A DNA stretch of 64,000 nucleotides, taken from NCBI RefSeq assembly GCF_022846255.1, contig NZ_AP025682.1. One strand, given 5' to 3'. This stretch comes from Escherichia coli (GTDB taxonomy: Bacteria > Pseudomonadota > Gammaproteobacteria > Enterobacterales > Enterobacteriaceae). Numbering within the stretch: the first letter of the stretch is position 1; the number at the start of each line of letters is the position of its first letter. Shown one piece after another: positions 21,001 to 24,000 of the stretch. Position numbers: made by a program.

Positions 21001-24000
21001 ATTGGCGCGGCATTTACCGGTTTGATTCTGGTGAACACCTTTTACTGGTGTACAAATCAGGGCATCGTGCAACGCACGCTGGCGTCAAAAAGCCTGGCGG
21101 AAGGGCAAAAGGGGGCGCTGTTAACGGCGGTGCTGAAAATGCTCGACCCGCTGGTACTGGTGCTGCCAGGGTTGATTGCGTTTCATCTGTATCAGGATTT
21201 ACCGAAAGCCGACATGGCCTACCCGACGCTGGTCAATAACGTTCTGCCGGTGCCACTGGTGGGCTTCTTCGGTGCGGTGTTATTTGGTGCGGTGATCAGT
21301 ACCTTCAACGGCTTTCTGAATAGCGCCAGTACGTTATTCAGTATGGGTATTTACCGGCGCATCATTAACCAGAATGCCGAGCCGCAACAGCTGGTCACCG
21401 TCGGGCGCAAATTTGGTTTCTTTATCGCCGTCGTTTCGGTGATGGTCGCGCCGTGGATCGCCAACGCGCCGCAGGGGCTGTATAGCTGGATGAAACAGCT
21501 CAACGGTATTTACAACGTGCCGCTGGTTACCATCATCATTATGGGCTTTTTCTTCCCGCGCATTCCGGCGCTGGCGGCAAAAGTGGCGATGGGGATTGGC
21601 ATAATCAGCTACATCACCATCAACTATCTGGTGAAGTTCGACTTCCATTTCCTCTATGTGCTGGCCTGTACGTTCTGCATCAACGTGGTCGTGATGCTGG
21701 TGATCGGTTTTATCAAACCGCGCGCCACGCCGTTCACCTTCAAAGATGCGTTTGCGGTGGACATGAAACCGTGGAAAAACGTCAAGATCGCGTCAATTGG
21801 TATCCTGTTTGCGATGATTGGCGTCTATGCCGGGCTGGCTGAATTCGGCGGCTACGGTACGCGCTGGTTAGCGATGATCAGTTATTTCATCGCTGCCGTA
21901 GTGATTGTCTACCTGATTTTTGACAGCTGGCGGCATCGTCACGACCCAGCCGTAACCTTTACTCCCGACGCGAAGGATAGCCTATGAAACGCCCCAATTT
22001 TCTGTTCATCATGACCGATACCCAGGCCACCAATATGGTCGGTTGCTATAGCGGTAAGCCGCTGAATACGCAAAATATTGATAGTCTGGCGGCGGAAAGT
22101 ATTCGCTTTAATTCCGCCTACACCTGTTCACCGGTTTGTACACCAGCGCGCGCCGGGCAAAAACATCTCCACTATGGGACGCTACTTTAAGGATGCGGGC
22201 TATCACACCTGTTACATTGGCAAATGGCATCTCGACGGTCATGACTATTTCGGCACTGGCGAGTGTCCGCCGGAGTGGGACGCTGATTACTGGTTCGATG
22301 GGGCGAACTACCTTAGCGAACTGACGGAAAAAGAGATCAGCCTGTGGCGCAATGGCCTAAACAGCGTTGAGGATTTACAGGCGAACCATATCGACGAAAC
22401 CTTCACCTGGGCGCACCGCATCAGCAATCGGGCGGTAGATTTTCTGCAACAGCCCGCGCGCGCCGAGGAACCCTTCCTGATGGTGGTTTCGTATGATGAG
22501 CCGCATCACCCGTTCACCTGTCCGGTGGAGTATTTAGAGAAATACGCTGATTTTTACTACGAACTTGGCGAGAAATCACAGGATGACCTGGCGAACAAAC
22601 CGGAACATCACCGCTTATGGGCGCAGGCGATGCCATCGCCAGTCGGTGATGACGGGCTTTATCACCATCCGCTCTATTTTGCCTGCAATGACTTTGTTGA
22701 TGACCAAATCGGACGGGTCATCAATGCCTTAACGCCAGAGCAACGTGAAAATACGTGGGTCATTTATACCTCCGATCATGGTGAAATGATGGGCGCACAT
22801 AAGCTGATCAGTAAAGGAGCGGCGATGTATGACGACATCACCCGTATTCCGCTGATCATCCGTTCGCCGCAAGGGGAGCGGCGGCAGGTCGATACGCCAG
22901 TCAGTCATATCGATTTACTGCCGACAATGATGGCGCTGGCAGATATTGAAAAACCAGAGATTCTGCCGGGGGAAAATATCCTTGCCGTGAAAGAGCCACG
23001 CGGCGTAATGGTGGAATTTAACCGCTACGAGATTGAGCATGACAGCTTTGGCGGTTTTATTCCGGTGCGTTGCTGGGTGACGGATGACTTTAAACTGGTG
23101 CTCAACCTCTTCACCAGTGATGAACTTTACGATCGCCGTAATGACCTAAATGAAATGCATAATCTGATCGATGATATCCGTTTTGCCGACGTTCGCCGCA
23201 AAATGCATGACGCCTTATTGGATTACATGGATAAAATTCGCGATCCGTTCCGCAGTTACCAGTGGAGTCTGCGTCCGTGGCGTAAAGATGCACGACCGCG
23301 CTGGATGGGGGCGTTTCGTCCACGCCCACAAGATGGCTATTCGCCAGTGGTACGCGACTATGACACCGGCCTACCGACACAAGGGGTGAAGGTGGAAGAG
23401 AAAAAACAGAAGTTCTGATGCATTATTGCTGTTCCTGGCCTACTTTTTCGGCGAGGAACAGTTTACAAGGAGCAACAATGAAAATTTCCCGCCTCGGAGA
23501 AGCACCTGATTATCGCTTCTCGCTGGCTAATGAGCGTACTTTTCTGGCGTGGATCCGTACCGCACTAGGCTTTCTGGCGGCGGGGGTTGGGCTTGATCAA
23601 CTTGCGCCAGATTTCGCCACGCCCGTCATTCGCGAACTGCTGGCGTTGTTGTTGTGTCTGTTTTCCGGCGGGTTAGCGATGTATGGCTACCTGCGCTGGT
23701 TACGCAATGAAAAAGCGATGCGTCTGAAAGAGGACCTGCCCTACACCAACAGCTTATTAATCATCAGCTTAATATTGATGGTCGTAGCGGTGATCGTTAT
23801 GGGACTGGTGTTGTATGCCGGATAGCCGCAAAGCCAGACGCATTGCCGACCCAGGGCTGCAGCCGGAGCGTACATCACTGGCGTGGTTTCGTACCATGCT
23901 GGGCTACGGCGCGTTGATGGCGTTGGCTATCAAACACAACTGGCACCAGGCGGGCATGTTATTCTGGATTTCGATTGGCATTCTCGCCATTGTGGCGCTG

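What the first reader, a model, noticed from the sequence alone, without database searches (positions are those of the whole stretch)
22140..22192. yidJ sulfatase interrupted exactly at its active-site signature
The first frame encodes CSPVCTPARAG, the C-x-P-x-R motif whose cysteine becomes formylglycine, then runs out of frame to a stop at 22188..22190; the sulfatase continues in the +1 frame from about 22155. The residues that normally follow the motif are absent from both frames, so this looks like a short out-of-frame deletion and not a simple homopolymer slip. The junction sits on the GC-rich string gcgcgccgggc, which could have mediated a repeat-driven deletion. Either the gene is inactivated in this strain or this is an assembly error.
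Basis: partly seen in the sequence, partly recalled or inferred. Interest (0 to 1): 0.5.

Follow-up and report, generated by a model that had tools for sequence, protein, structure and literature searches.

The report
Recurrent 59-bp deletion inactivating yidJ sulfatase
The E. coli sulfatase gene yidJ in this strain is a genuine but ordinary pseudogene, broken by a 59-bp deletion between two copies of a 10-bp repeat, and the same deletion has arisen independently in several other E. coli lineages.

Summary
yidJ reads from 21984 through CSPVCTPARAG, shifts frame, and stops at 22188-22190. The rest of the gene continues in the +1 frame to 23418.

Alignment to intact alleles shows exactly 59 bp missing. 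Intact alleles of this type carry CGCGCCGGGC twice, 59 bp apart. The window keeps one copy, at 22149-22158. This is a textbook slipped-strand (microhomology) deletion. It removes residues L59-P77, including the LFTG half of the sulfatase signature.

It is not an assembly error:
- The identical junction occurs on at least 9 contigs from independent read sets, including a metagenome.
- The window otherwise shows almost no indels against a close genome.

The same deletion, in the same register, sits on at least 8 yidJ backgrounds that differ by 2-58 SNPs. In B2-type alleles the repeat copies differ by one base, and two junction variants (G or A) occur. So the site is a recurrent deletion hotspot. 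K-12/B1-type alleles have synonymous changes that break the repeat, and no deleted versions of them were found.

None of 5,426 complete E. coli genomes carries the deletion, so it is rare and probably short-lived. This is an ordinary pseudogene of low interest, with a small lesson on synonymous sites creating mutational hazard.

The parts
21984..22190 (+). 5' fragment of yidJ. It has 58 native residues (M1-G58), including the metal-site MTDTQ segment and the C52-T-P-A-R motif, then 10 out-of-frame residues (QKHLHYGTLL) and a TAA stop at 22188-22190. Equivalent to p.Leu59GlnfsTer11.
   Evidence: Pfam PF00884 is recorded for this product. It matches NCBIfam arylsulfatase profile positions 5-61. 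The exact protein is BDH31205.1 / GDA27777.1.
22137..22151 (+). Codons for C52-T53-P54-A55-R56, the C-x-P-x-R formylglycine motif. It is retained.
   Evidence: Read directly from the sequence and from the translation.
22149..22158 (+). Deletion junction. This is the single surviving copy of the 10-bp direct repeat CGCGCCGGGC. Intact alleles have two copies 59 bp apart, and one copy plus the 49-bp spacer is missing here.
   Evidence: Alignment. Repeat positions 166 and 225 in intact alleles against one copy in the deleted alleles.
22150..23418 (+). 3' part of yidJ in the +1 frame, from A76-P77-G78-K79 to the stop at 23416-23418. The longest ATG-initiated ORF is 22174..23418 (414 aa, MGRYFK...). 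It lacks the N-terminal metal ligands and the formylglycine cysteine.
   Evidence: Pfam PF00884 and PF16347 are recorded for the 414-aa product. It matches NCBIfam arylsulfatase profile positions 89-461. The exact protein is BDH31206.1.
20272..21987 (+). yidK (solute:sodium symporter), intact. Its stop overlaps the yidJ start (ATGA), so the two genes belong to one operon.
   Evidence: and the annotation of homologous loci.
24174..24671 (+). yidF, 165 aa. It is a remnant of an anaerobic sulfatase maturase with the N-terminal radical-SAM part missing, and it has the same form in the intact-yidJ strains compared. Included as context for the locus.
   Evidence: it matches only positions 160-245 of the 363-position TIGR03942 profile, at 75.9 bits against a cut-off of 349. 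The same protein, WP_000148045.1, is annotated in L001, L002 and L015.

Best explanation
The window carries a real loss-of-function allele of yidJ, a cytoplasmic S1-family, Cys-type sulfatase of unknown substrate. The ancestral allele had two copies of CGCGCCGGGC, one encoding R56-A-G and one encoding A76-P-G, 59 bp apart.

Inferred mechanism: during replication the nascent strand, having copied one repeat, mispaired with the other. This removed one repeat copy plus the 49-bp spacer, 59 bp in all.

Shown consequence: translation shifts frame after G58 and stops 10 codons later. The helix that follows the formylglycine residue (LFTGIYANQSGPWTNNVAP) is lost. The 414-aa downstream ORF lacks the catalytic cysteine and the N-terminal metal ligands. 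The enzyme is therefore dead (inferred, not assayed).

The repeat pair is a mutational hotspot. The same 59-bp deletion has arisen independently on many yidJ backgrounds that carry an exact repeat of at least 8 bp. It was not seen on the most common K-12/B1-type alleles, where synonymous differences break the repeat. The deleted alleles are rare and look young. Repairing the 59 bp in the window restores, residue for residue, a very common full-length YidJ protein.
For: - **Size and repeats.** A 59-bp gap bounded by a perfect 10-bp direct repeat.
- **Intact state is ancestral.** yidJ is a single 1494-bp ORF in 5113 of 5426 complete genomes. Solved sulfatases align through the deleted segment without a gap.
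- **Independent confirmation.** The exact truncated product is on at least 9 contigs, from Logan runs DRR102846, DRR322658, ERR13369493 and SRR28614299, from ENA metagenome ERZ929318, and from a second NCBI record, GDA27777.1. L003 matches the window at 12,206 of 12,207 bases with no gap.
- **Clean assembly.** Only six other indels in about 48 kb against strain H22.
- **Recurrence, perfect-repeat alleles.** The identical junction is on haplotypes 14 and 27 SNPs away from the window. Their intact sister alleles are 100% identical apart from the 59 bp.
- **Recurrence, other backgrounds.** Simulated same-junction products on four further backgrounds exist in public assemblies and were confirmed at nucleotide level. 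That gives at least 8 backgrounds, 2-58 SNPs apart. B2-type alleles show two junction variants, CGCGCCGGGC in L017 and CGCGCCGGAC in L018 and L022. The allele with only a 9-bp repeat (strain-150 type) has its own junction in L023.
- **Dependence on repeat quality.** The K-12-type and B1-type predicted products are absent, although those alleles dominate: 4080 of 5111 genomes fall in the 90-95% identity band.
- **Recent event.** The repaired window protein is an exact, very common protein, listed in 1893 blocks of the collection.
Against: - No raw reads of the source strain could be inspected. DRR102846 may be the same isolate.
- No enzyme assay was done, so inactivity is inferred.
- The slippage mechanism is inferred from anatomy and recurrence, and was not observed.
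- No significant hairpin brings the repeats together (z = -0.4 and -1.6).
- The reciprocal 59-bp duplication, which slippage would also be expected to produce, was not found in complete genomes.
- The test for absence on K-12/B1 backgrounds covered only junction products reading ...ARAGQ.... Other resolutions would have been missed.
- A 10-bp repeat within 100 bp is not unusual. There are 23 such 10-mer pairs in the 64-kb window, so nothing marks this repeat as special beforehand.
Confidence: 0.9

Rival explanations
1. The deletion happened once, long ago, and reached the other backgrounds by homologous recombination of a short patch. On this view it is not recurrent.
For: Around the junction, the window is identical to L004 over 328 bp and to L005 over 404 bp. 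For those two alleles, import of a short patch cannot be excluded from sequence alone.
Against: - L004 and L005 are each 100% identical to an intact sister allele across the whole gene.
- B2-type deleted alleles (L017, L018, L022) and the strain-150-type allele (L023) keep their own flanking SNPs right next to the junction: CCTGCA, CCGGCG, ACATTTCCACC.
- Those alleles carry three further junction sequences, making four in all. They cannot be copies of the window's junction.
Confidence: 0.04
2. It is an assembly or sequencing artefact in the deposited genome, and the strain's gene is really intact.
For: GC-rich repeats can trouble some sequencing chemistries. I could not see read pile-ups for the source strain.
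Against: - The same junction is in at least 9 contigs assembled independently from other runs and a metagenome, and in a second NCBI record.
- A 10-bp repeat should be too short to collapse in standard short-read (k-mer graph) or long-read assembly (my own reasoning, not tested).
- The window shows no pattern of frameshift errors.
Confidence: 0.02
3. The split gene still makes a working sulfatase, either through +1 ribosomal frameshifting or by the two fragments assembling.
For: A +1 shift would join the two frames. The downstream ATG at 22174 lies 14 nt before the upstream stop, so some re-initiation is conceivable.
Against: - Even a perfect +1 shift would yield a protein lacking 19-20 core residues next to the formylglycine, including the conserved LFTG of the signature.
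- Homologues are single-frame in 5113 genomes, so the arrangement is not conserved.
- No Shine-Dalgarno-like sequence precedes ATG 22174.
Confidence: 0.02
4. Losing yidJ is advantageous in some niches, so the recurrence reflects selection for inactivation and not only a mutational hotspot.
For: - The loss is recurrent and independent.
- Other yidJ or yidK lesions exist, such as L016.
- The neighbouring maturase gene yidF is already a remnant.
Against: - None of 5,426 complete genomes carries any of the four junctions (with the positive control).
- Each event is seen on only 2-11 contigs.
- yidJ is intact in about 94% of complete genomes.
- All events use the same repeat pair, which points to mutation supply and not to selection on any loss of function.
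Confidence: 0.08

Closest known systems
Intact E. coli yidJ (K-12 b3678; WP_000828515.1 and WP_022646299.1 in strains SMS-3-5 and FDAARGOS_497), annotated as sulfatase-like hydrolase/transferase
   Same: It occupies the same locus (yidL, yidK-yidJ-yidH-yidG-yidF, emrD). Outside the gap it is 99.5% identical at nucleotide level. Repairing the 59 bp gives a protein identical to a very common intact YidJ.
   Different: The window lacks 59 bp (gene nt 176-234, or equivalently 166-224). The gene is therefore frameshifted after G58 and split into products of 68 aa and 414 aa.
Spontaneous deletions between short direct repeats by slipped mispairing, such as the classic lacI deletion hotspots in E. 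coli (Farabaugh et al. 1978; Albertini et al. 1982; cited from my own knowledge, not retrieved here)
   Same: The deletion end-points fall in a short perfect direct repeat. One copy and the spacer are lost. It recurs at the same site, and it depends on repeat quality.
   Different: This is seen in natural populations and not in a selection experiment. No rate, RecA-dependence or strand bias was measured. No convincing hairpin lies between the repeats.
Formylglycine-dependent S1 sulfatases with solved structures (best match 9ihk, S1_30A, E = 4e-44; also 7oz8, 6pt4 and 5g2v)
   Same: The intact allele aligns over residues 2-444, including C-x-P-x-R and the segment that follows it.
   Different: The window allele lacks the segment aligned to ...RASFQTGLYPVSTGCPINDMPMNP... 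and is out of frame. The substrate of YidJ is unknown, and it stays below every NCBIfam equivalog cut-off.

Membership tests
S1 (formylglycine-dependent) sulfatase, Pfam PF00884 | Sulfatase domain detected by a profile | tested here: met
   PF00884 is recorded for both fragments, and PF16347 for the 3' fragment. The two fragments match NCBIfam arylsulfatase and choline-sulfatase profiles over complementary parts, positions 5-61 and 89-461, below the equivalog cut-offs. The best PDB sulfatase match is E = 4e-44.
S1 (formylglycine-dependent) sulfatase, Pfam PF00884 | C/S-x-P-x-R core motif carrying the residue that becomes formylglycine | tested here: met
   C52-T-P-A-R is encoded at 22137-22151.
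S1 (formylglycine-dependent) sulfatase, Pfam PF00884 | Complete signature C-x-P-x-R-x-x-x-L-T-G, continuous with the rest of the fold in one reading frame | tested here: not met
   L59-F-T-G and the next 15 residues are deleted, and the frame shifts after G58. It is a pseudogene of the family and not a functional member.
S1 (formylglycine-dependent) sulfatase, Pfam PF00884 | Sulfate-ester hydrolase activity and formylglycine modification | not testable with these tools
   This needs an enzyme assay or mass spectrometry.
Slipped-strand (microhomology-mediated) deletion between direct repeats | The undeleted allele carries two direct repeat copies at the deletion end-points | tested here: met
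   CGCGCCGGGC is at gene nt 166 and 225 in FDAARGOS_497 and SMS-3-5.
Slipped-strand (microhomology-mediated) deletion between direct repeats | The product keeps exactly one repeat copy and loses one copy plus the spacer | tested here: met
   The window has one copy, at 22149-22158, and the loss is 10 + 49 = 59 bp.
Slipped-strand (microhomology-mediated) deletion between direct repeats | Independent recurrence at the same repeat pair, and dependence on repeat quality | tested here: met
   There are at least 8 backgrounds and four junction sequences. Events were found only on alleles with an exact repeat of at least 8 bp. The predicted K-12-type and B1-type products were not found. The absence test covered only the ...ARAGQ... 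resolution.
Slipped-strand (microhomology-mediated) deletion between direct repeats | Arises during replication, largely independent of RecA | not testable with these tools
   This needs fluctuation assays in recA+ and recA- hosts.
Programmed ribosomal frameshift | The two-frame arrangement is conserved among homologues, with a slippery site | tested here: not met
   Homologues are single-frame in 5113 complete genomes. The frame change coincides with a 59-bp deletion.
Assembly artefact | Not reproducible in independent sequence data | tested here: not met
   It is reproduced in independent assemblies and in a metagenome.

The most novel reading that the evidence does not exclude
The yidJ repeat pair works as a haplotype-specific mutational hazard created purely by synonymous codon choice. 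Alleles whose codons for R-A-G and A-P-G happen to spell the same 8-10-mer lose the gene again and again, while K-12/B1-type alleles are protected. In that case purifying selection on yidJ would also act, weakly, on synonymous sites. A bolder version is that the recurrent loss is selected in certain hosts.
Probability: 0.3. Interest if true: 0.35.

Novelty: new member of a known kind. Interest (0 to 1): 0.15.

Why it matters
For genome annotation, the two CDSs deposited for this strain should be merged into one yidJ pseudogene. They are currently a 'hypothetical protein' and a 'sulfatase/phosphatase'.

Biologically the strain has lost an accessory sulfatase of unknown substrate, which is a routine event.

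The only wider point is a clean natural example of synonymous differences that make or break a short direct repeat. Those differences seem to decide whether a gene is prone to a specific, recurrent, inactivating deletion. This could be measured directly with reporter constructs.

Tried and rejected
- **Hairpin-assisted slippage.** Folding the 79-nt intact segment as DNA gave z = -0.41 on the + strand and -1.60 on the - strand. That is no better than shuffled sequence, so the idea was dropped.
- **Reciprocal 59-bp duplication junction.** No hit in complete genomes.
- **Junction in JGI metagenome contigs.** The 25-nt exact pattern gave 0 hits.
- **Junction probes in 5,426 complete E. coli genomes.** All four junction types gave no match. 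I suspected the low-complexity filter, but a local positive control with the filter on found every cognate junction at 40/40. The negatives stand.
- **Other short N-terminal YidJ fragments in the protein cluster (P0002-P0015).** They all end in native sequence, so they are cut at contig ends or come from other lesions. They are not this deletion.
- **The 414-aa product P0026 from a K-12-like allele.** It comes from a different deletion of about 143 bp at the yidK/yidJ boundary.
- **Literature.** 'yidJ' gives only passing mentions. One paper, PMC7716201, lists it as enriched in gastrointestinal strains of cryptic clade II. 'TRECRb50' gives no papers.

Full report
**1. Observation**

The window encodes yidK at 20272..21987, and an ORF at 21984..22190 overlaps its stop. 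That ORF reads MKRPNFLFIMTDTQ...YTCSPVCTPARAG, then QKHLHYGTLL, and ends with TAA at 22188-22190. A second ORF in the +1 frame, 22078..23418, carries the rest of a sulfatase from ...APGKNISTMGRYFKDAGYHTCYIGKWHL... onwards. The formylglycine motif is C52-T-P-A-R, at 22137-22151.

**2. What the lesion is**

- A megablast of 21984..23418 against 5,426 complete E. coli genomes finds yidJ in 5,131 of them. In every top hit the match is in two pieces spanning 1494 bp, against 1435 bp in the window.
- Alignment with the intact alleles of FDAARGOS_497 and SMS-3-5 shows one gap of exactly 59 bp.
- In those intact alleles the 10-mer CGCGCCGGGC occurs at gene nt 166 and 225. The window has one copy, at 22149-22158.
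- It is the only 10-mer repeated within 100 bp in the intact gene.
- The loss is therefore one repeat copy plus the 49-bp spacer. At protein level this is p.Leu59GlnfsTer11, and LFTGIYANQSGPWTNNVAP is removed.
- Solved S1 sulfatases align through this segment without a gap. All other E. coli alleles contain it too. The intact state is therefore ancestral, and this is a deletion in the window and not an insertion elsewhere.

**3. Real, or an artefact?**

- The exact 68-aa product is called on at least 9 contigs. These come from Logan assemblies of DRR102846, DRR322658, ERR13369493 and SRR28614299, from ENA metagenome ERZ929318, and from a contig over 1 Mb.
- Its NCBI accessions are BDH31205.1 (locus tag TRECRb50_00210, on a 4,939,895-bp contig) and GDA27777.1.
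- The source of the window is thus probably E. coli TRECRb50. There the gene is annotated as two CDSs. This identification is an inference from the exact protein match and from the locus-tag position.
- L003 matches the window at 12,206 of 12,207 bases with no gap.
- Against strain H22, about 48 kb of the window has only six other indels: four of 1-2 bp, one of 11 bp and one insertion of about 840 bp. There is no sign of systematic frameshift errors.
- An assembly artefact is rejected.

**4. Recurrence**

- Among the contigs with the identical 40-nt junction, L005 differs from the window by 14 SNPs in yidJ. L004 differs by 27 SNPs and has a different gene neighbourhood, with yidI and glvCA present.
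- Complete genomes contain intact alleles that are 100% identical to L004 (HYM1) and to L005 (FDAARGOS_497, MS6198 and others), apart from the 59 bp.
- I then simulated the same deletion on other allele backgrounds and looked the predicted products up exactly. Four further products exist.
- All four were confirmed at nucleotide level:

| Allele background | Loci | Contigs | Junction |
|---|---|---|---|
| FDAARGOS_1259 (B2) type | L017, L018, L019 | 11 | CGCGCCGGGC in L017, CGCGCCGGAC in L018 (L019 not compared) |
| Second perfect-repeat type | L020, L021 | 4 | CGCGCCGGGC |
| Nissle (B2) type | L022 | 3 | CGCGCCGGAC |
| Strain-150 type (9-bp repeat) | L023 | 2 | CGCGCCGGGT, giving an immediate TAA stop and a 58-aa product |

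- In intact B2 alleles the two copies are CGCGCCGGAC and CGCGCCGGGC. L017 keeps the G and L018 and L022 keep the A, so both possible resolutions of the mismatched repeat are seen.
- Altogether at least 8 deleted backgrounds, 2-58 SNPs apart, carry four junction sequences. A single origin spread by recombination cannot explain this.
- K-12-type alleles read ACGGGCCGGA and CGCGCCAGGC. B1/O104-type alleles read CGCGCCGGAC and CGCGCCAGGC. Both have the repeat broken by synonymous differences.
- The predicted deleted products of those two types are not in the collection, although these alleles are by far the most common: 4080 of 5111 genomes fall in the 90-95% identity band.
- That absence test covered only the ...ARAGQ... 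junction reading.

**5. Frequency and age**

- None of the four junction 40-mers occurs in any of the 5,426 complete genomes.
- A local positive control with the low-complexity filter on showed that each probe finds its own deleted allele and ignores intact alleles.
- 362 complete genomes carry the identical 89-nt segment with the perfect repeat pair, and all of them are undeleted.
- Repairing the 59 bp in the window gives a 497-aa protein that is an exact, very common sequence, listed in 1893 blocks of the collection. The pseudogene has therefore gained no amino-acid change since the deletion.
- Each event is seen on only 2-11 contigs.
- The picture is of a mutation that keeps arising and does not persist. 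This fits a hotspot combined with weak purifying selection or drift (inference).

**6. Mechanism**

- The anatomy matches slipped mispairing between short direct repeats during replication. The features are a perfect or near-perfect GC-rich direct repeat at both end-points, retention of one copy, recurrence in the same register, alternative resolution of the mismatched base, and dependence on repeat quality. This mechanism is known from the lacI deletion hotspots, which I cite from my own knowledge.
- A hairpin bringing the repeats together is not supported.
- The reciprocal duplication was not found.
- Consequence (inferred): the 68-aa peptide has the motif but no fold. The 414-aa ORF starts at ATG 22174, has no evident Shine-Dalgarno sequence, and lacks C52 and the N-terminal metal ligands. 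No active sulfatase is expected. Polarity on yidH, yidG and yidF is possible but was not tested.

**7. Context**

- YidJ is a generic S1 sulfatase. It falls below all NCBIfam equivalog cut-offs, and its closest solved structure is 9ihk (S1_30A) at E = 4e-44.
- The adjacent yidF (165 aa) matches only the middle of the anaerobic sulfatase maturase profile. It is the same remnant in the strains with intact yidJ that I compared.
- The literature search found only passing mentions of yidJ.

**8. Verdict**

The thing itself is an ordinary strain-level pseudogene made by a well-known mutational mechanism. The recurrence and its dependence on synonymous-site haplotype is a neat but minor addition. I score interest at 0.15.

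Noticed in passing
window 37376-38215: The window has an insertion of about 840 bp relative to strain H22, between yicN and nepI. It holds two small minus-strand ORFs, 37416..37739 (107 aa) and 37723..38082 (119 aa). The first is an HTH protein with weak matches to the MqsA and NadS antitoxin families. The second has no family match. It may be a small toxin-antitoxin-like cassette.
   Followed up: partly
window 24174-24671 (yidF): yidF is only 165 aa. It matches positions 160-245 of the 363-position anaerobic sulfatase maturase profile, so the radical-SAM N-terminal part is missing. 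The same protein, WP_000148045.1, is present in the strains with intact yidJ that I compared. The maturase next to this sulfatase therefore looks like a remnant across these E. coli strains.
   Followed up: partly
window 19150-20135, 23419-23480 and 26029-26187, compared with L004 and L005: The window lacks three things that other yidJ-deleted strains have. First, glvC and glvA are absent between yidE and yidL, and yidL is called at 288 aa instead of 297 aa. Second, yidI is absent between yidJ and yidH, whereas L004, L020, L021 and L023 have it. Third, about 530 bp carrying tisB, between emrD and ilvB, are absent. Strain H22 shares the window's arrangement.
   Followed up: partly
L016 1340-1365 (GCA_014419785.1, AAVTZK010000023.1): A K-12-like allele has a different lesion: about 143 bp are missing across the yidK stop and yidJ start. 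This gives a 650-aa yidK read-through and the same 414-aa downstream ORF. The two flanks overlap by about 15 nt in the alignment, which suggests another repeat-mediated deletion.
   Followed up: partly
protein P0003 (Shigella flexneri, 83 aa, 38 contigs): An N-terminal YidJ fragment ending ...GKNIST recurs on 38 Shigella flexneri contigs. This may mark a fixed disruption of yidJ in that lineage, such as an IS insertion or a consistent contig break. It is a different lesion from the 59-bp deletion.
   Followed up: no
window 8338-8343, 17329, 41946 and 42172: The window has small indels relative to strain H22: a 2-bp and a 1-bp change inside the ORF at 7665..8426, a 1-bp change in the ibpB-yidE spacer, an 11-bp insertion (AAAACCTCACT) at 41946, and a 1-bp change at 42172.
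   Followed up: no
L020 370-2004: In one yidJ-deleted strain (ERR11841558), yidK is called at 544 aa instead of 571 aa. This could be a different start codon or a second lesion in the same operon.
   Followed up: no
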